Origin: Vicinamibacterales bacterium
GTDB taxonomy: Bacteria > Acidobacteriota > Vicinamibacteria > Vicinamibacterales > UBA2999
Length of the DNA: 64,000 bases
Assembly (NCBI GenBank): GCA_050247255.1
Contig: JBFWUM010000002.1
Coordinates: 79,488 to 143,487, forward strand
Direction: 5' to 3'
Notes under the pieces: generated by a model
Seen by the model: only the letters and a program-made list of their open reading frames with translations
Told to the model about the DNA's origin: nothing
The model's database searches: none
Translations under genes and position numbers: made by a program
Shown here: piece after piece, positions 3,439-31,606 of the stretch
How positions within the stretch are numbered: the first letter of the stretch is position 1
Layout: the number at the start of each line of letters is the position of its first letter

Positions 3439-4506
3439 GTGCGGGTTCTCGTTACCGGAACTGAGGGATACATCGGCGCGGTCATGGTGCCGATGCTGGA
3501 GGCGGCGGGCCATACGGTGGTCGGCCTCGACACCGGGTATTTCACCGACGCGCGGCTCGGTCGCGAGCCGGAGCCTGCGCTCGAAACGCGCACGCGCGAT
3601 CTGCGGCACGTGACCCGCGACGACGTGGAAGGGTTCGACGCGGTCATCCACCTGGCCGGCCTCTCGAACGACGCGCTCGGCCAGCTGTCGCGCCGCGTCA
3701 CCTACGACGTCAACCACGTCTGCTCGATTCGCCTGGCCGGCCTGGCGAAGGCGGCCGGCGTGCCGCGCTTCATCTACTCGTCGTCGTGCAGCATCTACGG
3801 GCGCTCGGCTGAGGCCATCGTCACGGAGAACTCGCGGTCGGACCCGCAGACCGACTACGCCGTCTGCAAGATGCTCGACGAGCGTGAGATCGCCGACATG
3901 GCGAGCGACACCTTCTCGCCGACGTTCCTGCGCAACGCCACCGCCTACGGCGCATCGCCGCGCATGCGCTTCGACCTGGTCGTCAACGACCTGAGCGCGC
4001 TGGCGCGGACGACCCGGCGGATCGCGATGAAGAGCGACGGCACGCCGTGGCGGCCGATCGTCCACGTGCAGGACATCTGCGCCGCGTTCCTGGCGGCACT
4101 GCAGGCGCCGCGCGAGGCGGTGCACAACGAGGTCTTCAACGTCGGCCGCACCGACGAGAACTACCAGGTGCGCGAGATTGCCACCGCCGTCGGCGAGGCG
4201 TTTCCCGGCTGCGAGGTGACGTTCGGCAAGAGCGATCCCGACCAGCGGAGCTACCGCGTGAGCTTCGAGAAGATCGAGCGGCAGCTGCCCGGCTTCAAGG
4301 CGACGTGGGACCTGCGGCGTGGCGTCGCGGAGCTGCGCGACCTCTACGAGCGGGTCGGCTTGACCGAGGCGATGTACAAGGCGCCGCCGTTCATCCGCCT
4401 GGCGAAGCTGAAATCGCTCATCGACAGCGGCCAGATCGACGCCGACTTCTTCTGGACCGCTCAGGCGGGCAGGGTCAGCGCGGTCAGCGCCGGATCGGGC
4501 AGGTAG
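3439..4506 (+). CDS. NAD-dependent epimerase/dehydratase (extended SDR)
   Basis: GTG start directly after the rfbF TAG. MRVLVTGTEGYIGAVMV carries the GxxGxxG motif, and a YAVCK catalytic YxxxK is present. It does not look like a canonical CDP-glucose 4,6-dehydratase N-terminus. Confidence 0.85.
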   Translation: MRVLVTGTEGYIGAVMVPMLEAAGHTVVGLDTGYFTDARLGREPEPALETRTRDLRHVTRDDVEGFDAVIHLAGLSNDALGQLSRRVTYDVNHVCSIRLAGLAKAAGVPRFIYSSSCSIYGRSAEAIVTENSRSDPQTDYAVCKMLDEREIADMASDTFSPTFLRNATAYGASPRMRFDLVVNDLSALARTTRRIAMKSDGTPWRPIVHVQDICAAFLAALQAPREAVHNEVFNVGRTDENYQVREIATAVGEAFPGCEVTFGKSDPDQRSYRVSFEKIERQLPGFKATWDLRRGVAELRDLYERVGLTEAMYKAPPFIRLAKLKSLIDSGQIDADFFWTAQAGRVSAVSAGSGR

Positions 4507-6386
4507 CGGGCGTCCGGCGGCGCGGCCACGCGGTTCTCGTACCACGCCACCAACACCATCAATCCCCACAGCCCGGCGCCGAGCGCCTGTGCACCGGTGA
4601 GGTGCGCATGCACCAGCCGCGTCACGACCTGCGGCTCCAGGACCCCGAGCGCCTCGACGCGCGCCGGCTCCAGTAGTTCCTGGAGGAGCGCGCGTCCGCC
4701 CGTCCGCAGCCAGTCGTTGAGCGGCACGCTGAAGCCCTGCTTGCGGGCGTAGGCGTGCTCCTGCCCGAAGTGCCGGGCGCACAGGCGGCGTAGTGCCACC
4801 TTCGTCGTTCTCCCCTGCATGCGCCAATCGTCCGGCAGCGAGAGCGCCAGCGCCGCCACGCCGGCGTTCAGGAACGGCGCGCGGCTCTCCAGGCCATGCG
4901 CCATGGTCGCGCGATCGACCTTTGCCAGGATGTCGTTGACCATGTACTCCGAGAGATCCATGCGCTGCAGGTCGTGCAGCGTCGGCGCCGGCGGAAGGGC
5001 GTGTTCAGCGGCAAGCGCGCTGAGACTGGCGCGAATCGATGCCTGCAGCGGTCCGGGCCGCGCCAGGCGCATGGCTTCGGCCGGCGTCCACGTGCCGTTC
5101 CACGTGAAGTGGGCTTCGGACGTCGTGAGCGCGAGCGCGCGGAGGAGACGGCCGGGCCGCCCGCCAATCCGGATCGTGCCGGCGGACGTGCGATCGGCCA
5201 GCCGCGCAAGCGCGGTCCAGGCGGCTGGTGGAAGCAGCCGGCGTATCTGGTGATGCCAGCCCGCGACGCGATAGGCAGGGTAGCCGGCGAACAGCTCGTC
5301 GCCGCCGTCGCCGCTCAGCACCACCTTGACCCGCTCCCGTGCCGCTCGCGCCACCGCCCACACCGCGATCGCCGACGAATCGGCGAGCGGATCGTCGAGG
5401 TGGCGGACCAGGTCCATGAACTCGCCGAGCTCGTCGCCGCGCATCGGCACGCGGACGAGCTCGATGCCGAGCTTCGCGGCCGCAAACGAGGCGCGCGTCC
5501 ACTCCGACACACCCGGGGTGAAATCGACGGAGAACGCGGCGGCCACGTGCCCCTGTCGCGCGGCGCTCTCGGCCACCAGGGCCGAGTCAACGCCGCCGGA
5601 CAGGAACAGCCCGACGGGCACGTCGCTCCGCAGCGTCAACCGGACGGCTTCGTCGAGGCGAGCTTGCAGCTGGTCGAGCACGTGCGCCGGATCGATCGGG
5701 ACGCGGGGCAGTGCCGCCGGCGAGAAGTAGCAGCGTTCCTCGCGCAAGCCCTCGGCGTCGTACAGCCGCCAGTGTCCGGGGCGCAGCCGCCGGACCCCGC
5801 GCAGCAGGGTCCGGTCTCCGGGGACGTAGTTGAGGCAGAGGTAGGCGCCGAGGGCATCAAGATCGAGCGCGCGCGCCCCGGCGCCAATCGACACCAGTGG
5901 CGCCAGCTCCGAGGCGAACGCGACGGTGCCGCCATCGTCGGCGTACAGCAGCGGCTTTTCGCCGAACCGATCGCGCGCGAGCAGCAACGTTCGTTCGCGC
6001 CGGTCGTAGATCGCCAGCGCGAACATCCCTTCGAGGCGCTCGATGACGGCAGGACCCCACGCGGTATACCCCGCCAGCAGCACCTCGGTGTCGGAGGCCG
6101 TCCGGAACGCGACTCCTTCGCGGCGCAGCGCATCGCGAAGCTCGACGTAGTTGTAAATCTCGCCGTTGAAGGTGATGACGAACCGATCGCCCGCGCCGGC
6201 CATCGGCTGCTGACCGTCAGCGAGGCCGATGATGGCGAGCCGGCAGTGGCCGAAGTAGGTGTTCCGCCCGTGCCAGTAGCCGCGCTCGTCCGGGCCGCGG
6301 TGCTGCAGCAGGCCGGTCACACGCCTGAGGCTGTCAAGGGGGGGCAGCTCGCGATCCCAGCCGACGTAACCGAAGATGCCGCACAC
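4461..6386 (-). CDS. asnB: Asparagine synthase (glutamine-hydrolysing) family amidotransferase, paralog 1
   Basis: GTG at 6386 gives (M)CGIFGYVG, the Ntn-glutaminase Cys2 N-terminus. RGPDERG, FNGEIYNY, DTEVLL, SGGVDS (PP-loop) and SGDGGDELFAGY are present. The 878-aa track ORF extends upstream spuriously. 641 aa. Confidence 0.9.
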   Translation of the reverse strand: MCGIFGYVGWDRELPPLDSLRRVTGLLQHRGPDERGYWHGRNTYFGHCRLAIIGLADGQQPMAGAGDRFVITFNGEIYNYVELRDALRREGVAFRTASDTEVLLAGYTAWGPAVIERLEGMFALAIYDRRERTLLLARDRFGEKPLLYADDGGTVAFASELAPLVSIGAGARALDLDALGAYLCLNYVPGDRTLLRGVRRLRPGHWRLYDAEGLREERCYFSPAALPRVPIDPAHVLDQLQARLDEAVRLTLRSDVPVGLFLSGGVDSALVAESAARQGHVAAAFSVDFTPGVSEWTRASFAAAKLGIELVRVPMRGDELGEFMDLVRHLDDPLADSSAIAVWAVARAARERVKVVLSGDGGDELFAGYPAYRVAGWHHQIRRLLPPAAWTALARLADRTSAGTIRIGGRPGRLLRALALTTSEAHFTWNGTWTPAEAMRLARPGPLQASIRASLSALAAEHALPPAPTLHDLQRMDLSEYMVNDILAKVDRATMAHGLESRAPFLNAGVAALALSLPDDWRMQGRTTKVALRRLCARHFGQEHAYARKQGFSVPLNDWLRTGGRALLQELLEPARVEALGVLEPQVVTRLVHAHLTGAQALGAGLWGLMVLVAWYENRVAAPPDARYLPDPALTALTLPA

Positions 6387-6437
6387 GCGCGCGAATTGTA
6401 CCGCTGCGCCACGGATAGAATACGCAGGACCCCGCCG

Positions 6438-8672
6438 ATGAAATTCCTGCTCGTTGCCCGCCAGAAGAAGAACGTCGACACCTTTCACGGGGTGATGTCG
6501 CGCCTGCTGGCGGACGGACATGCCGTGACGCTGGCGATCCAGGAACGGATGGACGAGGACGCACGCCGCGCGCTGGCCGGGCGCTTTCCAGCGGCCGGCT
6601 TCGCGCTGGTGACGCCCCCCGAAGGACGCGGCGATCAATGGCGCGCGTCGGTGCCGCTCGTGCGCGCCGCGCGCGACTGGGCGCAGTACCTGAGGCCGGC
6701 CTACCGGCACGCGTCCAAGCTGCGGCGGCGCGCCATCCATCGCTTCGTCAAGGAAGCCGGTATCGGCGAGGCGTTCGATCCGGAGCTGGCGATCAGCCAG
6801 CCGCACGCCGATCGCCTGCGCGAGGCGCTCGAGCAGATCGAGCACGCGGTGCCGAGCGACCCGTTGCATGAGGAGTTCATCCGGCGGCACGCGCCGGACG
6901 TCGTGCTGGTGACGCCGGGACTCCACTTCGGGTCGGCGCAGGCGGACTTCATCAAGAGCGCGCGCGCCTGTGGCGTCCCGGTGTGGATGTTGCTGTTCAG
7001 CTGGGACAACCTGAGCACGAAAGGCGTGTTGCCGGTCGCGCCGGACCGCATGTTCGTGTGGAACGAGCAGCAGCGGCGGGAGGCGGTCGAGCTGCACGAT
7101 TACCCGGCCGATCGCGTGGTCGTGGCCGGCGCGCCGCGCTTCGACGAGTTCTTCACGCTGACGAGCGTGATGGGCTATGGCGACTTCCTGAAACCGCTCG
7201 ACCTCGATCCCGCGGCGCCGACGCTCTTGTACGTCTGCTCGTCGCGGTTCATCGCCGCCGACGAGCTCTCGTTTCTCAGGCGGTGGCTGGCGGCGCTGCG
7301 CGCGTCACCCAACACGACGCTGCGCGGCTGCAACGTGATCGTTCGCCCGCATCCGGATCAAGTGCTGGTTGAGGGCGAGGAGCCGTCCGCCCGCACCTGG
7401 CCGTCCATGCCGCAGGCGACCGGCTGGGTGCAGCGGCCGTTCGCCGACCCCCGGGCGGTGGTGCTTCGCACCACGTACGGGACGCCGCAGGCATTTTTCG
7501 AGTGCCTGCATCACGCGTCGGCCGTTGTCGGGCTCAACACGAGCGCCGAGCTGGAAGCCGGCATCGTCGGCCGGCCGGTGTTTACGGTGCTGGCCGACGG
7601 CGAGGGCGCAGACGGCCAGTCGCATACGCTGCACTTCAACTACCTGCTGCGCGATCACGGCGGGTTCGTCGAGTACGCCCCGGACCTGGCGACGCACACG
7701 GCGCAGCTGGCCGCGGCGCTTCAGCGGCCACCGGATGCCGGCGGAATCCATCGCTTCATCCGCGGCTTCCTGCGTCCCGTCGGCGACGAACCGGTGGCCG
7801 ACGTGCTGGCGCGGATGTTGATGACGACCTCGATCGAGCGCGCCGCCCCGGCACCGGAAACGGCGACACCAACCAGCGACGATGTTCGGCCAGCCGTGCG
7901 CGATGGCAGGACGCTGACGCTGGGGTACCCGGGCTCGACCGCGCGCGTGGCGGCAACCGACGAGACGCGAGGCCACCGGCGGCATGGTGTGCTGGTGCTC
8001 GATTCCACCGCGGTGGCGTGGCTCGATGAGTTCGTAGCGCCAGGCGACGTGCTGTACGACATTGGCGCCGGTATCGGCGCCTACTCGCTGGCCGCGGCGC
8101 TGCATCGCGGGGCTCTGGTGGTCGCATTCGAGCCGGGCTTCACCGCGTTCAAGCGTCTCTGCGACAACCTGCTCGCGAACGGCTGCTACCGCAGCGTCGT
8201 TCCGCTGCCGATCGCCCTGGGCGCGGCGCCCGGGCTGCAGGACCTCGAGTACGCCGGCGACGCGGGTGGCCTGGCGCATGCCCTGACCGGCCGCCGCTGG
8301 AAGGCGCGTGGAGATGCGACGGAAGCGCGCTACACGCAGCCGGTATGCAGCGAGCGGCTGGACGACCTCGTGTCGCGGCACCGGCTGCCACCGCCGAACG
8401 CGATACGTGTGTCGCTGCGCGGCGGCGCGGCGGCCGCGCTCCAGGGCGCAGAGGCGCTGCTGCGCCAGCCGCAGCTCCGCGCGGTGCTCGCGTCGGTCAG
8501 CAGCGCGCGCGAGGCGGCACGGGTCGTCGAGGCTGTTGGTGGCGACTACGCGGCGGAGGACATGCCCGGACCCGGAAGCGATCGCCACGTGCTGCTGCGC
8601 CGGCGCGGCGAAGGCGCCGTCCGGGGCGCGGCACGGCTGTGGCAGCGCATGACGGGGACGGGGGCGCGCTGA
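6438..8672 (+). CDS. Fusion protein: uncharacterised GT-B-like (Rossmann x2) domain + C-terminal FkbM-family SAM methyltransferase domain
   Basis: ATG 6438 (MKFLLVARQKKNVDTFHGV) lies inside the 1258-aa track ORF, whose first 514 codons are antisense to asnB. Residues 1 to about 460 align by eye with CDS 9163..10518 (FSWDNLS/T, GAPRFD, GLNTSAxxEAxIVGRPVFT, TLHFxYLL). The C-terminus (about 7980-8672) has DIGAGIGAYSLAAAL...VVAFEP, which is FkbM-like. Confidence 0.85.
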   Translation: MKFLLVARQKKNVDTFHGVMSRLLADGHAVTLAIQERMDEDARRALAGRFPAAGFALVTPPEGRGDQWRASVPLVRAARDWAQYLRPAYRHASKLRRRAIHRFVKEAGIGEAFDPELAISQPHADRLREALEQIEHAVPSDPLHEEFIRRHAPDVVLVTPGLHFGSAQADFIKSARACGVPVWMLLFSWDNLSTKGVLPVAPDRMFVWNEQQRREAVELHDYPADRVVVAGAPRFDEFFTLTSVMGYGDFLKPLDLDPAAPTLLYVCSSRFIAADELSFLRRWLAALRASPNTTLRGCNVIVRPHPDQVLVEGEEPSARTWPSMPQATGWVQRPFADPRAVVLRTTYGTPQAFFECLHHASAVVGLNTSAELEAGIVGRPVFTVLADGEGADGQSHTLHFNYLLRDHGGFVEYAPDLATHTAQLAAALQRPPDAGGIHRFIRGFLRPVGDEPVADVLARMLMTTSIERAAPAPETATPTSDDVRPAVRDGRTLTLGYPGSTARVAATDETRGHRRHGVLVLDSTAVAWLDEFVAPGDVLYDIGAGIGAYSLAAALHRGALVVAFEPGFTAFKRLCDNLLANGCYRSVVPLPIALGAAPGLQDLEYAGDAGGLAHALTGRRWKARGDATEARYTQPVCSERLDDLVSRHRLPPPNAIRVSLRGGAAAALQGAEALLRQPQLRAVLASVSSAREAARVVEAVGGDYAAEDMPGPGSDRHVLLRRRGEGAVRGAARLWQRMTGTGAR

Positions 8673-8677
8673 GGGAC

Positions 8678-9166
8678 ATGGCTGACAAGGCAACCGAGAA
8701 GGCGGGCGAGCGCCGCCGCCCCATCGCCGAGAACCGCAAGGCGCGCCACGACTATCACATCCTCGAGCAGTTCGAAGCGGGCGTGGCGCTGCTTGGCACG
8801 GAGGTCAAGTCGATCCGCGAAGGCGGCGTGAACCTGCGCGACAGCTACGCTCGGCTCGACCGGGGCGAGGTGTGGCTGCTCAACGTGCACATCAGCCCGT
8901 ACAGCCATGAAGGGTCCGCGCACCATGAGGAGCGGCGGCAGCGCAAGCTGCTGCTGCACAAGCACGAGATCCGCAAGCTGACCGGCAAGGTCGCCGAGAA
9001 GGGGCTGACGCTGGTGCCGCTGGAGATGTACTTCAAGAACGGCCGCGTCAAGGTCAATCTCGCGCTGGCGCGCGGCAAGCAGATGCACGACAAGCGCGAA
9101 ACGCTGCGCCGCAAGGAAGCCGAGCGCGAGACGCGCGCGGCCGTCAAGGCGCGCCAGCGCGGCTAG
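8678..9166 (+). CDS. smpB: SsrA-binding protein SmpB
   Basis: ATG 8678. IAENRKARHDYHILEQFEAGVALLGTEVKSIREG...KLLLHKHEIRKL...GLTLVPLEMYFKNGRVKV is the classic SmpB sequence. 162 aa. Confidence 0.95.
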   Translation: MADKATEKAGERRRPIAENRKARHDYHILEQFEAGVALLGTEVKSIREGGVNLRDSYARLDRGEVWLLNVHISPYSHEGSAHHEERRQRKLLLHKHEIRKLTGKVAEKGLTLVPLEMYFKNGRVKVNLALARGKQMHDKRETLRRKEAERETRAAVKARQRG

Positions 9167-10518
9167 CGGCGTCGCAACGCCGCCGCGCGCTCGATCTCCT
9201 CGACCATGATCGGCGCGGCCTCCAGATCGAGTCCGCGCGGCCGCACGAAGTCACCCAGAAAGCGCCGGGATCGCTCGGCGATGTCCGCCGCCGCCGGCGC
9301 GGTCTCGAGCTGACGCCGGTGCTCATCGAGCGAATCGGCCACCGTCACCACGCCGCCGTTCTCCGCCAGCAGGTAGTGGAAATGCAGGGTCCCCGCCTGG
9401 CCACCCGCGAACTCGCTCGTCCGGATGGTGAAGACCGGGCGGCCGACGATCGCCGCTTCGATCATTGCGCTGGTATTCAAGCCGACGGCGGCCTCGGCGT
9501 GGAAGAGCGAGTCGTACAGCCGCTGATCGGCCTGTAGCGTCAGCTTCTGGGTCCAGACTGCTACGCCGGGAAGATCGGACAGGTCGGCCGTCTCCCATTG
9601 TTCGTGGTTGGCCGGGTGGGGACGGATCAGCACGTTGCAGTCGCGCGGCCAGCTTCCCGCGGCGGCGCCGCGCAGCGCCGCGATCCACTCGCGCACGAAC
9701 GCAACCTCGTACGGGGCGATGAACGAGGAGGAGCACATGTACAGCACGACGGGACGATCCGGATCGAGCCCGGCCGCAGCGCAGAACTCCTCGCGCGTCG
9801 TCGAGGGGCGCATCGAGAAGAACGCGTCAAAGCGGGGAGCGCCGGTGATGACGATGCGTTCCGGCGGGACGCCGTGCAGGTCGATGGCCTCGGCGCGCTG
9901 GTGCCGGTTCCAGACCAGCACCCGATCGGGCAGCACGCGAATGACGCCGCGGTTCGTCAGGTTGTCCCAGCTGAAGGGCGGATAGACCACCGGGATGCCG
10001 AGCGCCACCGCACACTTCACGTAGTCGGCCTGGTAGGTCTCGAAGTCGACCAGCGGCGTGACCAACACCACGTCGGGCGCCTGGTCGCGCAGGAACCTGA
10101 GGAATCCGGGATCGCATGGGATGAGGCGCTCGGCGGCGGCCAGCACCCGCTGCGTCGTCTTCCAGTGGCGGCGCAGCCACGCGTGGCGCTCGAAGGCGCG
10201 GTTCCACGCCTTGGGCGTGTGCGCGGCCGCGCGGCCGGCCAGTTTGGCGGCGGCGGCGTATCTCGGATCGAAGTAGCGCGCACGATCGCGGACGGCCCGC
10301 ACGGTGTCGGCCGCCGCGGCCCATCGATCGCTGCGCGCGTCAGGGCAGGTGACGATGTCGATGCCCGGGTGTGCATAGGGCCCCTTGCCGGCCTTCTGCG
10401 CATCATCGCGGCCGGTCGTCGCCAGGATCACGCGGTGCCCGCGAGCCGCGAGGCCGTTGACGACACCCCGGAAGTGGCGTGTGCGGCCGAGGCTGTGGGT
10501 AAAGAACAGGATCCGCAT
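9163..10518 (-). CDS. Uncharacterised GT-B-like protein, paralog of the N-terminal domain of CDS 6438..8672
   Basis: 451 aa. MRILFFTHSLGRTRHFRGVVNGLAARGH is a GT-B style N-terminus. It shares long collinear motifs with 6438..8672. Its stop overlaps the smpB stop in CTAG (9163-9166). Confidence 0.85.
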   Translation of the reverse strand: MRILFFTHSLGRTRHFRGVVNGLAARGHRVILATTGRDDAQKAGKGPYAHPGIDIVTCPDARSDRWAAAADTVRAVRDRARYFDPRYAAAAKLAGRAAAHTPKAWNRAFERHAWLRRHWKTTQRVLAAAERLIPCDPGFLRFLRDQAPDVVLVTPLVDFETYQADYVKCAVALGIPVVYPPFSWDNLTNRGVIRVLPDRVLVWNRHQRAEAIDLHGVPPERIVITGAPRFDAFFSMRPSTTREEFCAAAGLDPDRPVVLYMCSSSFIAPYEVAFVREWIAALRGAAAGSWPRDCNVLIRPHPANHEQWETADLSDLPGVAVWTQKLTLQADQRLYDSLFHAEAAVGLNTSAMIEAAIVGRPVFTIRTSEFAGGQAGTLHFHYLLAENGGVVTVADSLDEHRRQLETAPAAADIAERSRRFLGDFVRPRGLDLEAAPIMVEEIERAAALRRR

Positions 10519-10565: not shown

Positions 10566-11861
10566 GTGCCTCGCCCGCCGCTGCGGCTGTCGCGCCGCGT
10601 CAAGAACGCCATCCGCGCGCTGCTCATCGACACGCCGCTGATGCCGCGCCGTCAGCCCCCGTCCCCGGACGGCGATGACGCCGTGCCTCGCCCCTCGACG
10701 CCGTGCCCGCCGGGGCCGATCCTCGACGTGACGGCGTGCCCGATGTGCGGCGACCAGGGGCGGACCATCGTCAACGAGTTCAACAAGCTGATCGTCCTCG
10801 ACTGGATGCCGGATGAAGCCTCGGCGCGCTACGACCACGCGATCTGCCACGGCTGCGGCATCCTGTACGCGTCCCGGCGGCCGGCGGGACCGCGCTACCA
10901 CTGGCTGTTCGAACACTTCGAGGCGGCGATCGGACGGGGCCCCAAGGACGACATCAGCAACCTGCTGGCGAGCACGCCGACGGTCACCGACGCCGAGCGC
11001 GAGGAACTGCGCCGGCGCGCGGCGCGCGGCGTGTTCGTGTCGGATCACACCCGGACGCGGCGCAGCGAATACCTGCCGATGCTGTTGTCCGACCGGCTGC
11101 AAGTGAGCGTCCACGCCGAGATCCTCGGCTCGCTGCTCACCCTGCAGGGCGCGCGCGTGCTCGAAGTGCGCTCCCGCGTCGGGTCACTCGGCGCCATCCT
11201 GAAGCGGCTGTACGACGCCGACGTGTCGACGATGGCGTTCTTCGAGCGGCAGCGCGTCGCCATCGAGGAGGTCTATGGCCTGCCGGCCCGCTCGGTCATC
11301 GACTTCGACGTGTTCACCATCCCCTACGAGGGGCGGTTCGACCTGATCACCGCGAACCACATGATCACGCACGCCGTGCGGCCGCGCGAGTTCCTGGCCA
11401 CGCTGCGCGAGCGCCTGACCCCCGGCGGGCACGTCTACTTCTACAACGAGCCCGACGATGCCGAGTACCTGACGGAAGACGGGCAGTCGATGATCCGGAG
11501 ACTGAACCCCTTCCATGTGCAGGCGTTCGACGGCCCGTCGCTGACCCGGGCGCTTGCCGCCAACGGCCTCGAGGTCGTGTTCCTGCACCGCTACCAGGGG
11601 GAGTTCGTGTGCCTGTGCCGGCTGTCGTCCGCGCCGGGGTGGCCGCGGATGCCGGCGAAGGAACGCGAGAAGCGCGTGGCCGCGCACCAGCGGGCGCGCG
11701 ATGCCGCGGTGCTGATGCTCCCGCCGCGGCCGCGGCAGCGCTTCGCCGGCGAGTGGGAGGCCATCACCGAGCGCGCATTCGCCGCCGGGATCGCGGAGAT
11801 TGGCGAGGACGGCGAGGCGCGGGTGCGGCGCCGCAGTGGTCAGCGTGCGCATCGTGAATAA
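10566..11861 (+). CDS. Class I SAM-dependent methyltransferase with N-terminal Cys4 zinc-ribbon
   Basis: CPMCG...CHGCG is followed by VLEVRSRVGSLG, FDLITANHMITH and PGGHVYF. The start is uncertain: GTG 10566, with alternatives downstream such as ATG 10641. Confidence 0.75.
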   Translation: MPRPPLRLSRRVKNAIRALLIDTPLMPRRQPPSPDGDDAVPRPSTPCPPGPILDVTACPMCGDQGRTIVNEFNKLIVLDWMPDEASARYDHAICHGCGILYASRRPAGPRYHWLFEHFEAAIGRGPKDDISNLLASTPTVTDAEREELRRRAARGVFVSDHTRTRRSEYLPMLLSDRLQVSVHAEILGSLLTLQGARVLEVRSRVGSLGAILKRLYDADVSTMAFFERQRVAIEEVYGLPARSVIDFDVFTIPYEGRFDLITANHMITHAVRPREFLATLRERLTPGGHVYFYNEPDDAEYLTEDGQSMIRRLNPFHVQAFDGPSLTRALAANGLEVVFLHRYQGEFVCLCRLSSAPGWPRMPAKEREKRVAAHQRARDAAVLMLPPRPRQRFAGEWEAITERAFAAGIAEIGEDGEARVRRRSGQRAHRE

Positions 11862-13378: not shown

Positions 13379-14509
13379 ATGAGGCCCGCACGCTTCGCCG
13401 CCCTCGTCCTTGCCGCCGCCGCGCTCGTCGCCGGCCCGGTCGCCGGCGCGAACTGGATGCTCGATCCGTTCGGGTGGTTCGGGCGGTCAACCGCCGGGTT
13501 TTACTTCGAGAGCGAGCGGGACATCAAACGCGGGTTGGTCAGTCACCGCGAGGCGGAAGGGCTGCTCATGGGATCGAGCAAGGTCGCCGAATGGCAGCCA
13601 TCGCAGATTCGAGGGCACCGCGTGCTCAATGCCGCCTGGAGCGCGGCGGTGCCGGAAGAGATCGAGGCGTTCCTCGAGGACGTTGGTCCGCGCGTCGATT
13701 TCATCGCCCTCGGCCTCGATCTGTTCATGTTCAACGAGGGGACCTATCCGCTTGTAACCCGGTCGCCGTTCTCGACCTGGCAGCCCCAGCTGATCTCCAC
13801 GCACCTGCTCAGCGTGGAGATGCTCCAGCGCGGGCTCTGGGCGCGGGCTCGGCGGCTGGCGGGGGAACGGCCGCGGATCCTCCCCGACGGCGCGCGGAAC
13901 ACCGCTGCCGACGAAGCCGAGGACCGTTTGAAGCCGCGGTCGGATGCGGCGGTGCTGGAGCGCCTGCAGCGATCGGTGTTCGGCAACTTCACCTACGCCT
14001 CGACCCGGGTGGACCGGCTGCGGGGTGTGCGTGCCTGGTCGGAGCGGCGCTGCGTGACGCTGGTGGTCTTCCTGAACCCCATGAGCCGCCCGGTGCTCGA
14101 CCTGATCGACGAGATCGGCGTGGCGGGGGAGCTGGCGCGGTTTCGCCAGGACGTGCAGTCCGTGTTTCCCGGCGTCGTCGACCTCGTCGACGGCGAGCTG
14201 TCCGCGCCGGACAACTACTGGCGCGCGGACCCCGACCACTACTATCCGTCGATCGGCACGCGGATCTTCGACGAGCACGTGGCCCCGCGGCTCCGCCCGG
14301 CCGAGGACGGCGACGCCTGTCGTCCGTCGGGCCTGGAGCGCTGGGTTCCTATTGGAAGCAGGGCAGGCCGAGCGGCTCGTAGACGCCGGCCGGCGCCAGT
14401 CCCCGCCGCACCAGCAGCGCGAAGCTCAGGCCGCCGCCGATGTCCCTGTCGCCGGCGCTCTCGTACTCCCCGTACAGGTAGTCCGCGACGATCGGGAACT
14501 CGCGCGTGA
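13379..14509 (+). CDS. DltD/AlgJ-like periplasmic partner of the MBOAT acyltransferase (SGNH-like)
   Basis: ATG lies 1 nt after the MBOAT stop. It has an N-terminal signal/anchor (MRPARFAALVLAAAALVAGPVAG) and a GSSK serine motif. The last ~55 codons are Arg-rich low complexity, read antisense through the neighbouring gene. Confidence 0.65.
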   Translation: MRPARFAALVLAAAALVAGPVAGANWMLDPFGWFGRSTAGFYFESERDIKRGLVSHREAEGLLMGSSKVAEWQPSQIRGHRVLNAAWSAAVPEEIEAFLEDVGPRVDFIALGLDLFMFNEGTYPLVTRSPFSTWQPQLISTHLLSVEMLQRGLWARARRLAGERPRILPDGARNTAADEAEDRLKPRSDAAVLERLQRSVFGNFTYASTRVDRLRGVRAWSERRCVTLVVFLNPMSRPVLDLIDEIGVAGELARFRQDVQSVFPGVVDLVDGELSAPDNYWRADPDHYYPSIGTRIFDEHVAPRLRPAEDGDACRPSGLERWVPIGSRAGRAARRRRPAPVPAAPAARSSGRRRCPCRRRSRTPRTGSPRRSGTRA

Positions 14510-16058
14510 ACGTCTCGCGGCCGCTGCTCGGAGGCCCGATGACCACCGGCACCGACTGGCGGCGCAGGCGTTGCACCGTCACCTCCTGCTCGGCGGGCGT
14601 GTCGTAGAAGCCGCCGCGCAGGTCGAGCCTGCCGCCGGCGAAGCCGCGCTGCGCGAGGCCGTAGACCGGCGGGAAGAATGCCGTCATCAGCACGCGATCG
14701 CCGGGGGCTGTGCACGCGTTCAGGTAACGCGCCAATCCGATCTGGCCCGAGGTGTCTTCCGTCCAGTACTCGAGCGGCCACGTCTGCTGCAGCTGTCGCG
14801 TGACGATCGCCGCATCGCGTGACACGGCATCGGCTCCGTCGAGCAGCGCGCTGTTGCGGACGAGTTCTCCCGTCGGCCGCGTCAGCACTGCGGCGGTCGC
14901 GAGAACGATTACGAGCGCCGCGGTGCCGAGCACGAGGGCGCGGCGCCACGGCGGCCGGAACGCCGCGCGCAGGGTCCAGGCGGCGAGGATGGCTATCGGC
15001 ACGGCAATGTCGCCGAACCGGCCGTCGACGTTGCCGCGGACGAGGCGATAGTGGAGCACCAGCGTCAGCAGCGCCACCACCGCGATCTTGACGCGCTCCT
15101 GGCGCCAGGGCGGCGGCCGCTCGCCGCGCTGCAGCGCGAGCAGCGCCAGGCTGGCAAGCGGAATCAGCAGCAGCGCCCAGTAGAGCCACCACCTCGAGTA
15201 GTGTTCATCGAGCGCGGCAAACGGGCTTCGTTCCCACCACGCCGACTCGTCGCCGCCATCGTCCCTGAACAGGGAGGCGAACACCGGCCGCGGCGGGTTG
15301 AGCGGCGATCGATCGTAGTCGCGGGCGGAATACCGGGCGCCGGCGGCAACATGCTGAACGACGCCGCCATTCAGCTGAAGGAACACCAGGTACGGCGACA
15401 GGCACAGCAGCAGCGCCAGCGCGAAGATCGTCCCCTGTCGCAGGCGATCGGACCACCGCAACTCGCTCGCGGCCAACAGGGCCAACCCGAAGGCGCCGGC
15501 CAGGTACAGGCCGTGATCGTGCCGCAACAGGAACGCCACCGCGGTGACGCCGGCCACCAGCCAGGTGCGCCGGCTTCGCGGTGCCGACAGCCAGTGCCAG
15601 ATGACGGCGATGCCAACGGCGTAAACGAGAATCTTCGGCCAGTTGTACAGGCGCGGCCGCAGCGCGATTTCGAGCAGCGCCGCGCCGAGGCCGAGCAGGA
15701 CGGACCCGGTGGCACGCGCCGCCAGCACGCAGGTCAGGCCGACGCCGAGCGACAGGACGAGCACACAGAACACGTACTCCGACCAGACGCTGCGGCCGAG
15801 GGCCAGCTGCAGGAGCCACGAGACGACGTAGGTGAGGGGGGCCCCGGGGTCGTTGAAGTCGCGGTCCGGCAGTTCGCCGTACAGCAGCTGCCACCCCTGC
15901 ACCGCGTAGAACATGTGGTCGTCGGTGAGGCCGCCGAACGAACCTTCCGGGTCGTTGTAGCGCAGCACCCAGGCGAGCAGGAACATCGCGACCGCCGCGA
16001 GCCAGGGCAGCAGGGGGCGGAGGCGGGTAAGCGACGCGCGCATGCGGCACGCCATCAT
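14349..16058 (-). CDS. Polytopic membrane protein, GT-C-like (ArnT/PMT-style) with C-terminal soluble domain
   Basis: ATG 16058 (MMACRMRASLTRLRPLLPWLAAVAMFLLAW) lies within the 874-aa track ORF. There are about 10 hydrophobic segments and acidic motifs (TDDH, DRDFND) in the first loop. The function is a guess from architecture. Confidence 0.6.
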   Translation of the reverse strand: MMACRMRASLTRLRPLLPWLAAVAMFLLAWVLRYNDPEGSFGGLTDDHMFYAVQGWQLLYGELPDRDFNDPGAPLTYVVSWLLQLALGRSVWSEYVFCVLVLSLGVGLTCVLAARATGSVLLGLGAALLEIALRPRLYNWPKILVYAVGIAVIWHWLSAPRSRRTWLVAGVTAVAFLLRHDHGLYLAGAFGLALLAASELRWSDRLRQGTIFALALLLCLSPYLVFLQLNGGVVQHVAAGARYSARDYDRSPLNPPRPVFASLFRDDGGDESAWWERSPFAALDEHYSRWWLYWALLLIPLASLALLALQRGERPPPWRQERVKIAVVALLTLVLHYRLVRGNVDGRFGDIAVPIAILAAWTLRAAFRPPWRRALVLGTAALVIVLATAAVLTRPTGELVRNSALLDGADAVSRDAAIVTRQLQQTWPLEYWTEDTSGQIGLARYLNACTAPGDRVLMTAFFPPVYGLAQRGFAGGRLDLRGGFYDTPAEQEVTVQRLRRQSVPVVIGPPSSGRETFTREFPIVADYLYGEYESAGDRDIGGGLSFALLVRRGLAPAGVYEPLGLPCFQ

Positions 16059-21509: not shown

Positions 21510-22502
21510 TTGCTGAACTGGAACGACTCGACGATTCTCATCACCGGCGGGACCGGCTCGTTCGGCCGGAAGTTCACCGAGATCCTGCTGCGTGACTACC
21601 GGCCGAAGAAGCTCATCATCTTCAGCCGCGACGAGTTGAAGCAGCACGAGATGCGGCAGACGTGGGACGACCGGAGCGGATCCAACGTGCGCTACTTCCT
21701 CGGCGACATCCGCGATCGCGATCGCCTCTATCGCGCCATGCGCGGGGTCGACGTCGTCGTCCATGCGGCGGCGCTGAAGCAGGTGCCGGCCTGCGAATAC
21801 AACCCGTTCGAGGCCGTGCAGACCAACGTGCACGGCGCCCAGAACATCATCAACGCGGCGATCGACACCGGCGTCCGCCGCATCATCGCCTTGAGCACCG
21901 ACAAGGCGGTGAATCCCGTCAACCTGTACGGCGGCACCAAGCTGGTCGCCGAGCGGCTCTTCACCGATGGCAACTCGTATGCGGCTGACAGCGGCACCCG
22001 CTTTTCCTGCGTACGCTACGGCAACGTGGTCGGCAGCCGCGGCTCGGTCATCCCGCTGTTCCTGCAGCAGCGGGCCAGCGGGCGCGTGACCGTCACCGAC
22101 GAGCGGATGACGCGCTTCTGGCTGACGCTCGAGCAGGGCGTCCGGTTCGTCATCCGCAGCGCCGAGGAGATGCTGGGCGGCGAGATCTTCGTGCCGAAGA
22201 TCCCGAGCATGCGGATCACGGACCTCGTCGAAGCGATCGCCCCGCGCTGCAAGGTCGAGATCACCGGCATCCGGCCCGGCGAGAAGCTGCACGAGGCGCT
22301 GCTCTCCGAGCACGAATCGCAGCGCACGCTCGAGCTCGATGGCATGTACGTCGTCCAGCCCGAGTTCGGCTGGTGGTCGGCCGGCCATTGGACAAAAGGC
22401 GCGCGCCTGCCCGACGGCTTCACCTACACGAGCGACGCGAACACGGAGTGGCTGACGCCCGCGCAACTGACCGCGATGTGCGGCGAGGTGGTACCGGCCT
22501 GA
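21510..22502 (+). CDS. pseB: UDP-N-acetylglucosamine 4,6-dehydratase (inverting), PseB
   Basis: TTG 21510 with GAGGAG at 21496-21501. (M)LNWNDSTILITGGTGSFGRKF, DIRDRDRL, STDKAVNPVNLYGGTKLVAE and VRYGNVVGSRGSVIPLF give the soluble FlaA1/PseB pattern. Confidence 0.85.
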   Translation: MLNWNDSTILITGGTGSFGRKFTEILLRDYRPKKLIIFSRDELKQHEMRQTWDDRSGSNVRYFLGDIRDRDRLYRAMRGVDVVVHAAALKQVPACEYNPFEAVQTNVHGAQNIINAAIDTGVRRIIALSTDKAVNPVNLYGGTKLVAERLFTDGNSYAADSGTRFSCVRYGNVVGSRGSVIPLFLQQRASGRVTVTDERMTRFWLTLEQGVRFVIRSAEEMLGGEIFVPKIPSMRITDLVEAIAPRCKVEITGIRPGEKLHEALLSEHESQRTLELDGMYVVQPEFGWWSAGHWTKGARLPDGFTYTSDANTEWLTPAQLTAMCGEVVPA

Positions 22503-30230: not shown

Positions 30231-30863
30231 ATGGAATCAGGGAAGCGCGACGAGTCACGTTCCGAGGTCACGCGCCTCGAACAGTTGTGGGGCGGAGAGT
30301 TCGGCGACGCGTACATCGAGCGCAACCGCGACGCGGGCGGGCCGCGGGAGCCGTTCTGGACCTCGCTGCTGGCGCAGTTTCCCGTGACGCGCGCGCTCGA
30401 GGTCGGCTGCAACACCGGCGCGAACCTGCGCTGGCTCGTCGGCGGTGTGCCGGAGGTGTTCGGCGTGGACGTCAACACGACGGCGCTGGCCGATGTCCGG
30501 AGGAACCTGTCATCGGTCAACGCGGTCCATGCCGCCGGCCGTGAGCTGCCGTTTCGAGACGGGTGGTTCGACCTGGCATTCACGATGGGGGTGCTGATCC
30601 ACCAGCCGACCGAATCGCTGCCGCTGGTGATGGCGGAAATCGTGCGCTGCTCGCGGCGCTACGTGCTGTGCGGCGAGTATTTCTCCGAGGAGACGGTCGA
30701 AGTCCCCTACCGCGGGCATCGCGGGGCGTTGTTCAAGCGCGATTTCGGCGGCCTCTACCAGCGCCTGTTTCCCGAGCTGGCGCTGCGCGCCAGCGGCTTC
30801 CTCGGGCGCGACGCCGGCTGGGATGACGTGACCTGGTGGATGTTCGAGAAGCAGCCGCGGTGA
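30231..30863 (+). CDS. Pseudaminic acid biosynthesis-associated methylase family protein
   Basis: AGGAG at 30221-30225. 210 aa. LWGGEFGDAYIERN, ALEVGCNTGANLRWL, FDLAFTMGVLIHQ and YFSEETVEVPYRGH are present. The family call is from memory of the TIGRFAM Pse-associated methylase and from context. Confidence 0.7.
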   Translation: MESGKRDESRSEVTRLEQLWGGEFGDAYIERNRDAGGPREPFWTSLLAQFPVTRALEVGCNTGANLRWLVGGVPEVFGVDVNTTALADVRRNLSSVNAVHAAGRELPFRDGWFDLAFTMGVLIHQPTESLPLVMAEIVRCSRRYVLCGEYFSEETVEVPYRGHRGALFKRDFGGLYQRLFPELALRASGFLGRDAGWDDVTWWMFEKQPR

Positions 30864-31591: not shown

Positions 31592-31606
31592 ACCGAGCGT
31601 GCCCGC

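What the first reader, a model, noticed from the sequence alone, without database searches (positions are those of the whole stretch)
6438..10518. Inverted pair of uncharacterised GT-B-like paralogs, one fused to FkbM, bracketing smpB
CDS 6438-8672 (residues 1 to about 460) and CDS 9163-10518 align over their whole length by eye. One shared block is PDVVLVTP...QAD(F/Y)(I/V)K...G(V/I)PV...FSWDNL(S/T)..G(V/I)...PDR(M/V)(F/L)VWN..QR.EA..LH..P..R(V/I)V(V/I).GAPRFD.FF. A later block is NV(I/L)(V/I)RPHP...GLNTSA..EA.IVGRPVFT...TLHF.YLL. I cannot assign these motifs to a known glycosyltransferase family. One copy carries a C-terminal FkbM methyltransferase domain (about 7980-8672), which suggests a coupled transfer-plus-methylation (capping) enzyme. 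The two copies face each other across smpB, which looks like an inverted duplication.
Basis: partly seen in the sequence, partly recalled or inferred. Interest (0 to 1): 0.65.

Follow-up and report, generated by a model that had tools for sequence, protein, structure and literature searches.

The report
Unnamed sugar-transferase family, paralog pair
Two diverged copies of an unnamed but very large family of sugar-transferase-like enzymes, one fused to a methyltransferase, sit on either side of smpB in a soil Acidobacteria surface-polysaccharide locus; the family is real and unstudied, and its substrate is only inferred.

Summary
CDS A (6438-8672, +, 744 aa) and CDS B (9163-10518, -, 451 aa) are paralogs: 40% identity over about 480 columns, E 4e-97. 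They flank smpB (8690-9166). A carries a C-terminal FkbM methyltransferase domain.

An AlphaFold model of B is a GT-B two-Rossmann fold with an 80-residue helical insertion. It has no close solved relative. No Pfam or NCBIfam model reaches its cutoff. The only consistent remote hit is the BFO_1060 family, the Tannerella pseudaminic/legionaminic acid transferases (44 of 45 members, best E 2e-17).

The family is large: 7022 clusters at 50% identity, mostly Vicinamibacterales. It occurs in arrays of up to 10 copies per 21 kb. It is repeatedly fused to two unrelated O-methyltransferase types, to GT2, or to itself.

In 77 related loci, a NeuB homolog or a cytidylyltransferase lies within 10 kb in 40. 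RmlA-type nucleotidyltransferases lie nearby in none.

The most likely function is a cytoplasmic transferase using cytidine-nucleotide-activated donors, such as the pseudaminic acid derivative made 11-15 kb downstream, with A also methylating. The donor is not shown.

The pair is not a recent inverted duplication: each copy has 60-61% orthologs elsewhere. A "capping" role is not supported here, because the window has Wzx flippases and no ABC transporter.

The parts
6438..8672 (+). CDS A, 744 aa: N-terminal GT-B-like transferase domain, linker, C-terminal FkbM methyltransferase domain
   Evidence: ORF and translation. Identical to the NCBI gene model P0271. More than 120 homolog clusters share the full-length architecture.
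6438..7847 (+). GT-B-like domain of A (residues 1-470). Candidate catalytic residues, counted from the alignment: D190 (nt 7005-7007), H305 (nt 7350-7352), N366/T367/S368, E372, H399
   Evidence: Aligns with B over its whole length. Keeps every invariant column of A1 and A2. Hits NF046086 at 2.6e-9.
8049..8468 (+). FkbM-family SAM-dependent methyltransferase domain core (A residues 538-677)
   Evidence: TIGR01444, 51.4 bits, above its cutoff of 37.7. Pfam PF05050 at 0.0017 is below its cutoff. The motif DIGAGIG is present in the sequence.
8690..9166 (+). smpB (SsrA-binding protein), a housekeeping gene between the paralogs
   Evidence: Pfam SmpB 1.1e-61; NCBIfam NF003843 5e-64. Adjacency to a family copy recurs in 8-9 of 77 loci, and the arrangement is identical in L082.
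9163..10518 (-). CDS B, 451 aa: stand-alone GT-B-like transferase. Candidate catalytic residues D185 (nt 9964-9966), H301 (nt 9616-9618), N348/T349/S350, E354, H379
   Evidence: Translation. Identical to P0001. AF2 pLDDT 85.6, pTM 0.86, GT-B fold. Foldseek probability 1.0 to GT-B enzymes. NF046086 at 3.9e-14.
4461..6383 (-). Asparagine synthase-like glutamine amidotransferase, divergent from A with a 54-bp intergenic gap
   Evidence: Pfam Asn_synthase 4e-77 and GATase_6/7. Frame plot. Same position in L082.
10566..11861 (+). 431-aa class I SAM methyltransferase, divergent from B
   Evidence: Pfam Methyltransf_23 3.4e-12. Homologs lie next to family copies in 10-13 of 77 loci.
14349..16043 (-). 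564-aa polytopic membrane protein of unknown family, the most frequent neighbour of the GT-B family
   Evidence: No Pfam or NCBIfam hit even at E 1. At least 5-6 hydrophobic segments. Homologs in 31-33 of 77 loci. All homologs are annotated 'hypothetical'.
21510..26285 (+). Pseudaminic-acid-type nonulosonic acid operon: PseB-like, PseC-like, PseG/PseH-like fusion, PseI (NeuB). Candidate source of the donor sugar
   Evidence: Pfam Polysacc_synt_2 2e-101, DegT 1.8e-121, GNAT plus a weak Epimerase_2 hit, NeuB 6e-91.
30860..32356 (+). Two tandem CMP-nonulosonate-synthetase-type cytidylyltransferases
   Evidence: Pfam CTP_transf_3 1.4e-27 and 2.5e-22. The two are 41% identical to each other.
35779..37212 (+). 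KpsS/KpsC-like (Capsule_synth) protein: a rival candidate for the nonulosonic acid transferase of this locus
   Evidence: Pfam PF05159, 1.8e-7, 31.4 bits, above its cutoff of 20.

Best explanation
A and B are two old paralogs of a very large, unnamed family of soluble cytoplasmic GT-B-fold transferases. The family is centred on soil Acidobacteria (Vicinamibacterales). A and B work in the assembly of a surface polysaccharide encoded by this region of more than 60 kb.

Shown: the two-Rossmann GT-B fold; an 80-residue helical insertion in the N-terminal domain; and a set of invariant residues. Those residues are D185 in SWDNL after the fifth N-domain strand; R299-P-H301-P after the second C-domain strand; N348-T-S at the start of a C-domain helix, with E354 on that helix; and T377-x-H379. 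Both paralogs keep all of them, so both are probably active.

Inferred mechanism: the C-domain binds a nucleotide-activated donor. The HP histidine and the NTS helix cap hold the phosphate, and E354 holds the ribose. D185 in the cleft acts as base on the acceptor hydroxyl.

Inferred donor class: cytidine-nucleotide-activated, most likely a CMP-nonulosonic acid such as the pseudaminic acid derivative made by the pse genes and cytidylyltransferases 11-22 kb downstream. The family's only consistent relatives are the Tannerella Pse/Leg transferases, and its neighbours elsewhere are NeuB and cytidylyltransferases rather than RmlA-type enzymes.

In A, the fused FkbM domain would O-methylate the sugar just added or its acceptor, using SAM.

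My confidence that this is a new GT-B transferase family acting in polysaccharide synthesis is about 0.8. My confidence that the donor is cytidine-nucleotide-activated is about 0.5. My confidence that the donor is specifically the Pse derivative of this locus is about 0.3.
For: Fold:
- AF2 model of B has pLDDT 85.6 and pTM 0.86.
- Foldseek probability is 1.0 to MshA, WaaG, NeuC, UDP-GlcNAc 2-epimerases and GT1 enzymes.
- The C-domain alone matches MGD1, WaaG, GT1 enzymes, TagF and NeuC.

Remote homology:
- NF046086 'BFO_1060 family glycosyltransferase' is the best NCBIfam hit for B (3.9e-14) and for A (2.6e-9).
- It hits 44 of 45 diverse members, best 2e-17. TIGR04396 'surface carbohydrate biosynthesis protein' hits 17 of 45.
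- BFO_1060 is the strain 92A2 counterpart of Tanf_01245/TFUB4_00887. Knock-outs of those genes lose the terminal Pse or Leg derivative of the O-glycan (PMC5420450).

Context in 77 loci from other genomes (within 10 kb):
- NeuB homolog in 24; CTP_transf_3-like in 22; CTP_transf_like in 19.
- Any of these three in 40 of 77, and in 30 of the 50 loci that reach about 20 kb or more.
- RmlA-type NTP_transferase in 0, RmlC in 0, GT2 in 6, GT4 in 2, Capsule_synth in 2. Family members are therefore often the only candidate transferases next to the nonulosonic acid genes.
- In L078, CTP_transf_3, a methyltransferase, Epimerase_2 and NeuB are followed directly, on the same strand, by family genes.

This window holds a pse-type operon, two CMP-synthetase-type genes and an amidotransferase module.

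Methylation coupling:
- FkbM domain above the TIGR01444 cutoff.
- The fusion is conserved in more than 120 clusters.
- There are independent fusions to NanM-like O-methyltransferases.

No hydrophobic segments are found in A or B.
Against: - The BFO_1060 match covers only model positions 43-172 of 365. That is the second half of the N-domain and the linker, not the nucleotide-binding domain. It scores 52 bits against a cutoff of 200.
- Foldseek's top hits are UDP- and dTDP-dependent GT4, GT1 and GT28 enzymes and UDP-GlcNAc 2-epimerases. No sialyltransferase or Kdo transferase is in the top 50, and TagF appears only for the C-domain.
- The nearest orthologs of A (L045, L005, L074, L076, L080, L081, L084) and most near orthologs of B have no NeuB or cytidylyltransferase within 10 kb.
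- The genes syntenic with A are an NDP-6-deoxyhexose-type block: RmlC, GT2, NTP_transferase and epimerase.
- The window has its own Capsule_synth-like gene right after the nonulosonic acid operon. It belongs to the same Pfam family as the KpsS/KpsC transferases. The characterised Pse transferase KpsS1 (GT118) is described as a KpsC homolog (PMC12887879).
- B. subtilis SpsB shows that a TagB-domain protein with HP and DEG motifs next to a legionaminic acid pathway need not be the transferase (PMC7439481).
- There is no biochemical evidence for any member.
Confidence: 0.5

Rival explanations
1. A and B are ordinary NDP-sugar glycosyltransferases. They add a hexose or 6-deoxyhexose made by the adjacent RmlC / NTP_transferase / epimerase-dehydratase block, and A then O-methylates it. 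FkbM enzymes often methylate deoxyhexoses (background knowledge, not tested here).
For: - The block RmlC-GT2-NTP_transferase-Epimerase-AsnB-A-SmpB-B is conserved intact in the 81% ortholog locus L082.
- Foldseek's best matches are GT4, GT1 and GT28 enzymes that use UDP- or dTDP-sugars.
- The segment ..IEAAIVGRPV.. aligns weakly with a GT4 from the window (hhalign E 0.015).
- Pfam Glyco_transf_4 is B's best Pfam hit (2.3e-5, below cutoff).
- Close orthologs of A lie outside nonulosonic acid clusters.
Against: - In 77 other loci no RmlA-type nucleotidyltransferase or RmlC lies within 10 kb, while cytidylyltransferases or NeuB do in 40.
- No Glycos_transf_1 or other GT4/GT1 C-domain model is matched.
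- The best profile hit is the Pse/Leg transferase family.
Confidence: 0.28
2. They are TagB/TagF-like phosphotransferases. They would transfer an alditol-phosphate or similar group from a CDP-activated donor onto the glycan, leaving CMP, rather than transferring a sugar.
For: - TagF is among the best structural matches for the C-domain and has the highest TM-scores (0.55-0.56).
- Pfam Glyphos_transf is a weak hit (0.01; precomputed for P0067).
- The Tannerella relatives were themselves described as carrying a TagB domain (PMC5420450).
- TagD-type CTP_transf_like genes fused to methyltransferases lie in 19 of 77 loci.
Against: - Glyphos_transf scores 15.2 bits against a cutoff of 22.1.
- No CTP_transf_like gene was found in this window by similarity to the L032 example.
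- In 24 loci the neighbour is a NeuB-type synthase, which points to nonulosonic acids.
Confidence: 0.12
3. They are not transferases. They would be NDP-sugar hydrolases or 2-epimerases of the NeuC/PseG/WecB type, acting inside a sugar-nucleotide pathway.
For: - NeuC and UDP-GlcNAc 2-epimerases are in Foldseek's top 10.
- Pfam Epimerase_2 is a weak hit (0.0046).
- TIGR03568 NeuC is hit by 2 of 45 members.
Against: - Epimerase_2 scores 16 bits against a cutoff of 30.6.
- Loci already carry true Epimerase_2 genes (window 58556-59716; L078).
- Arrays of 5-10 paralogs, proteins with 2-3 tandem copies, and fusions to GT2 and O-methyltransferases fit transferases, not a pathway enzyme.
Confidence: 0.05
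4. The pair arose by a recent local inverted duplication around smpB.
For: The two genes are in opposite orientation on either side of smpB. Short inverted DNA matches exist between them.
Against: - Protein identity is only 40%.
- DNA matches are about 72%, over 38-75 nt, inside conserved coding blocks.
- A and B each have orthologs at 60-61% in other genomes.
- The same A-smpB-B order is present in an 81% ortholog contig. The arrangement is therefore inherited and the duplication predates these lineages.
Confidence: 0.03

Closest known systems
BFO_1060 / Tanf_01245 / TFUB4_00887 family (NCBIfam NF046086): Tannerella forsythia pseudaminic and legionaminic acid derivative transferases
   Same: - It is the only curated family that almost every member hits (44 of 45, best 2e-17).
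- Similar size (about 445 aa), soluble, and predicted GT-B/TagB-like.
- It carries an HP motif.
- It lies next to nonulosonic acid biosynthesis genes and a methyltransferase (PMC5420450).
   Different: - Scores are 17-52 bits against a cutoff of 200.
- The match is limited to model positions about 40-175 of 365.
- There is no D/E-D/E-G motif upstream of the HP motif; the conserved acidic motif is SWDNL.
- The family is Acidobacteria-centred, occurs in arrays and is fused to methyltransferases.
TagB/TagF CDP-glycerol glycerophosphotransferases (Pfam PF04464; PDB 3L7I)
   Same: GT-B-like fold with CMP as leaving group. TagF gives the best TM-scores for the C-domain (0.55-0.56). By eye and from memory the motif order looks similar: a first C-domain strand ..LY.(C/P)(S/T).., then ..HP.., then ..(Y/T)S(S/A)...(E/D).
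   Different: Below the Pfam cutoff (15.2 against 22.1 bits). 12-14% identity in structural alignment. The helical insertion in the N-domain is different.
GT4 retaining glycosyltransferases (MshA, WaaG, BshA) and UDP-GlcNAc 2-epimerases (WecB, NeuC)
   Same: Best overall Foldseek hits (E 4e-11 to 1e-8, probability 1.0). Same two-Rossmann architecture. An ..EA..G.PV.. helix follows the nucleotide-binding loop.
   Different: TM-score is only 0.47-0.55 and identity 11-17%. No Glycos_transf_1 or Epimerase_2 model passes its cutoff. hhalign against the window's own GT4 and epimerase is not significant.
KpsC/KpsS-type CMP-ulosonic acid transferases (GT107, GT99, GT118 KpsS1 Pse transferase, GT140)
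   Same: If the donor inference is right, the donor class is the same (CMP-activated acidic sugars). Both use a modified GT-B fold with extra helices. Multi-module proteins and ABC-transporter association are common in both (PMC12887879).
   Different: No Capsule_synth hit for A or B. hhalign against the window's own Capsule_synth protein is not significant. Here the helices are inserted inside the N-domain, not built from the linker and the C-terminal extension.
FkbM-family methyltransferases (TIGR01444 / PF05050)
   Same: The C-terminal 240 residues of A match TIGR01444 above its cutoff and carry the glycine-rich SAM loop DIGAGIG.
   Different: Databases name the whole 744-aa protein 'FkbM family methyltransferase'. 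That name ignores the larger N-terminal transferase domain.

Membership tests
GT-B fold glycosyltransferase superfamily | Two Rossmann-like beta/alpha/beta domains with an inter-domain cleft, and C-terminal helices crossing back to the N-domain | tested here: met
   AF2 model pLDDT 85.6, pTM 0.86, with alternating strand/helix order in both halves. Foldseek finds 339 PDB matches at E<=0.001, and the 50 shown are GT-B-fold enzymes.
GT-B fold glycosyltransferase superfamily | Demonstrated transfer of a glycosyl group from an activated donor | not testable with these tools
   No characterised member was found. All homologs are annotated 'hypothetical protein' or 'FkbM family methyltransferase'.
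BFO_1060 family glycosyltransferase (NF046086; Tannerella Pse/Leg transferases) | Score at or above the curated cutoff of 200 bits over the 365-position model | tested here: not met
   B scores 52.5 bits and A 36.7 bits, and only model positions 40-174 are matched. 44 of 45 members hit, all far below the cutoff.
Bacterial sialyltransferase-type motifs (as used for GT38/52/80 and Tanf_01245) | HP motif in the C-terminal domain | tested here: met
   R299-P300-H301-P302 follows the second C-domain strand. P300 is invariant and H301 and P302 are conserved in at least 90% of 45 members.
Bacterial sialyltransferase-type motifs (as used for GT38/52/80 and Tanf_01245) | D/E-D/E-G motif in the N-terminal domain, upstream of HP | tested here: not met
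   No conserved D/E-D/E-G lies before residue 299. The conserved acidic motif is S183-W184-D185-N186-L187. An E-N-G-G string lies after HP, at 386-389.
TagB/TagF glycerophosphotransferases (PF04464) | Pfam gathering score of 22.1 bits | tested here: not met
   15.2 bits, E 0.01, residues 200-309 only. Structural similarity of the C-domain to TagF has TM 0.55.
UDP-GlcNAc 2-epimerase / NeuC (PF02350) | Pfam gathering score of 30.6 bits | tested here: not met
   16.3 bits. hhalign against the window's true Epimerase_2 gives probability 0.2%.
GT4 (PF13439 plus PF00534) | N-domain and C-domain models above their cutoffs | tested here: not met
   Glyco_transf_4 scores 24.9 against 28.5 bits, and there is no Glycos_transf_1 hit.
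KpsS/KpsC Capsule_synth (PF05159; GT107/GT118) | Pfam hit | tested here: not met
   No hit for A or B at E<=1. hhalign against window 35779-37212 gives probability 0.4%.
FkbM family methyltransferase (TIGR01444) | Score at or above 37.7 bits, and a SAM-binding glycine-rich loop | tested here: met
   51.4 bits over A residues 538-677. The motif DIGAGIG is present in the sequence. Pfam PF05050 alone is below its cutoff (19 against 22.7).
CAZy GT families | Sequence membership in a CAZy family that has a characterised founder | not testable with these tools
   No CAZy library is on hand. No match to the Pfam, NCBIfam or PDB proxies was found.

The most novel reading that the evidence does not exclude
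This would be a previously unrecognised, CAZy-level family of GT-B transferases that depend on cytidine-nucleotide (CMP-nonulosonate) donors. It is hugely expanded in soil Acidobacteria, with arrays of up to 10 paralogs, proteins with 2-3 modules, and fusions to three kinds of partner domain. Together with an equally unknown polytopic membrane protein, it would build a new class of methylated polymers rich in nonulosonic acids. A would be a bifunctional 'add-and-methylate' enzyme.
Probability: 0.3. Interest if true: 0.7.

Novelty: new variant of a known kind. Interest (0 to 1): 0.55.

Why it matters
Transferases for bacterial nonulosonic acids (pseudaminic and legionaminic acid) are few and poorly defined. 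The papers read here describe a scarce set: Maf and FlmG for flagellin, KpsS1 (GT118), and the genetically defined Tannerella enzymes.

This family has about 7000 clusters at 50% identity and no Pfam or NCBIfam model. It sits next to NeuB and cytidylyltransferase genes in many genomes. If the donor inference is right, it would add a large new set of candidate transferases and a set of natural transferase-methyltransferase fusions.

It would also open up the surface-glycan chemistry of Vicinamibacterales, an abundant soil lineage represented in these searches almost entirely by metagenome-assembled genomes. These loci hold many proteins with no family match.

If the donor turns out to be an ordinary NDP-sugar, the finding is still a new GT-B family, but of routine interest.

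A practical point: databases label the 744-aa fusion only as 'FkbM family methyltransferase', which hides the transferase domain.

Tried and rejected
- Sequence searches of the PDB with B alone, an 18-sequence profile and a 45-sequence profile. They gave only chance hits such as OmpR regulators and PEP synthase.
- hhalign of the family profile against the window's own Epimerase_2, Capsule_synth and GT4 proteins. Nothing was significant; single-sequence templates are weak.
- Foldseek of a C-domain-only model, to read the donor class from the nucleotide-binding half. The hits were a mix of GT28, GT4, GT1, TagF and NeuC, plus GPCR crystallisation chimeras at ranks 16-45. This does not discriminate.
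- A search for DNA-level inverted repeats as evidence of recent duplication. Only 72-76% matches of 38-75 nt were found, all inside conserved coding blocks.
- A search for further family copies, ABC transporters, TagD-like genes or the unknown fused 'domain X' in the window. None were found.
- Asking whether copies closest to A or B are the ones next to NeuB or cytidylyltransferase genes. Mostly they are not: the association holds for the family as a whole, not specifically for the A and B orthogroups.
- Pfam and NCBIfam at permissive thresholds on the co-occurring unknown proteins (orf14349, clusters 6, 14, 15 and 16, domain X). No hits.
- The 1258-aa ORF 4896-8672 was rejected as a gene model. 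Its 5' part is antisense to asnB.
- Literature searches for TIGR04396 found nothing. Searches for later work on Tanf_01245 found no structural or CAZy assignment in the held library.

Full report
**1. The observation**

The window has about 70% G+C. It belongs to a Vicinamibacterales (Acidobacteriota) metagenome-assembled genome. B is 100% identical to NCBI protein 'MAG: hypothetical protein AB7P99_01430 [Vicinamibacterales bacterium]'. A is 100% identical to 'MAG: FkbM family methyltransferase [Vicinamibacterales bacterium]'.

CDS A (6438-8672, +, 744 aa) and CDS B (9163-10518, -, 451 aa) are both present. BLASTP aligns A residues 1-470 with B residues 1-446 at 40% identity, E 4e-97. The similarity therefore runs over the whole length and is far beyond chance.

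The ORF tool lists a longer frame, 4896-8672. Upstream of 6438, however, the codon-position GC pattern is that of a minus-strand gene. That gene is an asparagine synthase-like amidotransferase, 4461-6383.

smpB (8690-9166, +) lies between the paralogs. It starts 18 bp after A's stop, and its stop codon overlaps B's stop by 4 nt.

The FkbM assignment for A residues 538-677 passes the TIGR01444 cutoff (51.4 against 37.7 bits). The Pfam model is just below its own cutoff.

**2. What the proteins are**

No Pfam or NCBIfam family reaches its curated cutoff for the shared domain. The sub-threshold hits are:
- Glyco_transf_4, Epimerase_2 and Glyphos_transf in Pfam;
- NF046086 'BFO_1060 family glycosyltransferase' (B 3.9e-14, A 2.6e-9) and TIGR04396 in NCBIfam.

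PDB sequence searches with one sequence and with two profiles find nothing.

An AlphaFold2 model of B built on 18 homologs is confident (pLDDT 85.6, pTM 0.86). It shows a classic GT-B arrangement of two Rossmann-like halves. About 80 residues of helices (67-146) are inserted in the N-domain.

Foldseek against the PDB gives probability 1.0 to GT-B enzymes: MshA and WaaG (GT4), NeuC and other UDP-GlcNAc 2-epimerases, and GT1 antibiotic glycosyltransferases. TM-scores are only 0.47-0.55 and identity 11-17%. There is no close solved relative.

A model of the C-domain alone (pLDDT 87.4) matches MGD1, WaaG, GT1 enzymes, TagF (best TM-scores, 0.55-0.56) and NeuC. That result does not tell the donor class.

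Across 45 members that share only 39-57% identity with B, the invariant residues are S183, W184, D185, L187, W203, N204, E210, G226, D231, S263, E271, P300, N348, E354 and H379. H301, P302, T349, Q374 and T377 are conserved in at least 90%. A keeps all of them.

On the model, these residues lie as follows:
- D185 follows the fifth N-domain strand.
- RPHP follows the second C-domain strand.
- NTS caps a C-domain helix that carries E354.

These are the places where GT-B enzymes usually put the catalytic base, the phosphate-binding residue and the ribose-binding acid. That last point rests on general knowledge of GT-B enzymes. It is an inference, not something checked in three dimensions here.

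**3. Size and shape of the family**

A profile search of 1.84 billion cluster representatives finds 7022 clusters at E<=0.001 and 1875 at E<=1e-30. Among the top 150:
- 60 are single-domain proteins.
- 24 carry two or three tandem copies of the domain.
- 65 carry one domain plus an extension.

The extensions fall into these groups:

| Extension | Count |
|---|---|
| Unknown domain of about 350-400 aa, no Pfam or NCBIfam match | 32 |
| FkbM methyltransferase | 15 |
| TIGR04371 NanM-like sugar O-methyltransferase | 7 |
| GT2 | 2 |

The exact GT-B+FkbM architecture of A is kept at 50-81% identity in more than 120 clusters.

A scan of one genome per species finds 248 relatives. The 77 best loci are nearly all Vicinamibacterales or other Acidobacteriota, with some Actinomycetota, Chloroflexota and Planctomycetota.

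The family occurs in arrays. 58 of 77 loci have at least two copies within 21 kb, and one has up to 10. There are 308 family ORFs in 76 loci. This window has only the two copies.

**4. Is the pair an inverted duplication?**

No. A's best ortholog elsewhere is 60% identical (L045, with FkbM fused) and B's is 61% (L001), against 40% between A and B. DNA similarity between the two genes is limited to 38-75 nt blocks at 72-76%.

The full order RmlC-GT2-NTP_transferase-epimerase-AsnB(-)-A-SmpB-B(-) is present in an independent metagenome contig whose A is 81% identical. The arrangement is inherited. A and B are separate old orthogroups of a multigene family.

smpB adjacency recurs in 8-9 loci. This looks like conserved synteny rather than a functional link.

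**5. Context and function**

The window is one long surface-polysaccharide region. Upstream of A lie an NDP-deoxyhexose-type block and an AsnB-like amidotransferase. Downstream of B lie:
- a SAM methyltransferase, an MBOAT and an unknown polytopic membrane protein;
- a formyltransferase, a PglF-like dehydratase and a pse-type operon of PseB, PseC, a PseG/H fusion and PseI;
- a HisH/HisF-type glutamine amidotransferase pair, further methyltransferases and two CMP-synthetase-type cytidylyltransferases;
- a Capsule_synth (KpsS/C-like) protein, two Wzx-type flippases, two more AsnB paralogs, and further methyltransferases and formyltransferases;
- a second MBOAT, two GT4 enzymes, a UDP-GlcNAc 2-epimerase and a deacetylase.

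No ABC transporter is present.

Counts of neighbours within 10 kb in the 77 related loci:

| Neighbour | Loci (of 77) |
|---|---|
| NeuB homolog | 24 |
| CTP_transf_3-like cytidylyltransferase | 22 |
| TagD-type CTP_transf_like, fused to a methyltransferase | 19 |
| Any of the three above | 40 (30 of the 50 loci that reach about 20 kb or more) |
| ABC-2 permease or ATPase | 22 |
| orf14349-like membrane protein | 31-33 |
| RmlA-type NTP_transferase | 0 |
| RmlC | 0 |
| GT2 | 6 |
| GT4 | 2 |
| Capsule_synth | 2 |

In L078 the genes CTP_transf_3, a methyltransferase, Epimerase_2 and NeuB run straight into family genes on the same strand. In many loci, then, family members are the only visible candidates for the transferases that use the cytidine-activated sugar.

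The profile evidence points the same way. 44 of 45 members hit NF046086. The founders of that family are the Tannerella forsythia Pse/Leg-derivative transferases, defined by knock-out and complementation (PMC5420450).

**6. Cautions**

- The NF046086 match covers only the second half of the N-domain and the linker, at a quarter of the cutoff score.
- The structural neighbours use UDP or dTDP donors.
- The closest orthologs of A, and most of B's, are not next to nonulosonic acid genes. Some A orthologs stand almost alone, for example L084, which has only an extra FkbM gene beside it.
- The window has its own KpsS/C-like candidate right after the nonulosonic acid operon. The characterised Pse transferase KpsS1 (GT118) is a KpsC homolog (PMC12887879).
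- B. subtilis SpsB is a TagB-domain protein with HP and DEG motifs beside a legionaminic acid pathway. It proved dispensable for Leg transfer (PMC7439481).

The donor is therefore an inference. I put about 0.5 on a cytidine-nucleotide-activated donor, about 0.3 on an ordinary NDP-sugar from the adjacent deoxyhexose block, and about 0.1 on TagF-like phosphotransfer.

**7. The fusion**

Coupling of transfer and methylation is supported by recurrence. Two unrelated O-methyltransferase families, FkbM and NanM-like, have each been fused to this domain. Separate FkbM or class I methyltransferase genes also sit beside family copies in many loci.

Whether the methyl group is a chain-terminating cap cannot be told. 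Elsewhere the family often travels with ABC-2 transporters, where such caps are known. This window uses Wzx flippases instead.

**8. Verdict**

It is an entry point to a very large GT-B family with no curated model. The family has an unusual genomic organisation and a plausible, untested link to nonulosonic acid transfer. It belongs to a known kind (GT-B transferases) but to no described family, so I rate it a new variant of a known kind. Interest is moderate.

Noticed in passing
L066:1374-21365; L010, L011, L017, L029, L063 (six to eight consecutive copies each): The GT-B family forms dense arrays. Up to 10 paralogs lie within 21 kb in an Actinomycetes MAG, and 6-8 nearly back-to-back copies occur in several Acidobacteriota MAGs. 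58 of 77 loci have at least two copies.
   Followed up: partly
P0143 residues 476-818 and 31 other representatives (e.g. P0144, P0145, P0177, P0185): An unknown C-terminal domain of about 350-400 aa is the commonest fusion partner of the family (32 of the top 150 representatives). It has no Pfam or NCBIfam match and no homolog in this window.
   Followed up: partly
P0121-P0142 (e.g. P0121, 1546 aa, three matched stretches): 24 of the top 150 representatives carry two or three tandem copies of the GT-B domain in one polypeptide. This is reminiscent of dual-module polymerases such as KpsC.
   Followed up: no
window 14349-16043 (-): A 564-aa polytopic membrane protein has no Pfam or NCBIfam match even at E 1. 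Its homologs are annotated only as 'hypothetical' and are found mostly in Vicinamibacterales. It is the single most frequent neighbour of the GT-B family (31-33 of 77 loci). It could be a GT-C-like transferase, a polymerase or a ligase.
   Followed up: partly
window 35779-37212 (+): A Capsule_synth (KpsS/KpsC-like) protein is encoded soon after the nonulosonic acid biosynthesis genes and just before a Wzx flippase. It is an alternative candidate for the pseudaminic acid transferase of this locus.
   Followed up: partly
window 21510-32356 (+): This stretch looks like a complete pse-type pathway: an apparent PseG-PseH fusion (23716-25233), an extra GNAT, a HisH/HisF-like amidotransferase pair with an unknown 376-aa protein (26892-30222), and two tandem CMP-synthetase paralogs that are 41% identical. 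It suggests one or two modified nonulosonic acids, possibly with an acetamidino group.
   Followed up: no
window 4461-6383 (-), 39457-41337 (+), 45369-47231 (+): Three asparagine synthase-like amidotransferase paralogs (31-34% identical) lie in one polysaccharide region. This may point to amidation of acidic sugars.
   Followed up: no
window 8672-9166: The housekeeping gene smpB is embedded in the polysaccharide locus. It starts 18 bp after A and its stop overlaps B's stop by 4 nt, leaving no room for a terminator between the convergent genes. Adjacency of smpB to a family copy recurs in 8-9 other loci.
   Followed up: partly
L031:15655-17508 (+); L032:2328-3443 (+): Single open reading frames combine a cytidylyltransferase with a class I methyltransferase: CTP_transf_3 in L031 and TagD-type CTP_transf_like in L032. 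The methyltransferase / CTP_transf_3 cluster that includes the L031 type is in 30 loci and the L032 type in 18-19. I did not check whether these are true fusions or adjacent genes without an intervening stop.
   Followed up: no
window 11902-14382 (+) and 54821-57383 (+): There are two MBOAT O-acyltransferase modules. One has a downstream unknown 302-aa protein with an N-terminal signal-like segment, and the other has an upstream GDSL/SGNH protein. This suggests two separate O-acetylation systems. A radical SAM/SPASM gene lies at 53781-54824.
   Followed up: no
window 4896-6437 (+): A's reading frame stays open for 1.5 kb upstream of the true start, because it runs antisense to asnB in 70% G+C DNA. 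Naive ORF calling gives a false 1258-aa protein.
   Followed up: yes
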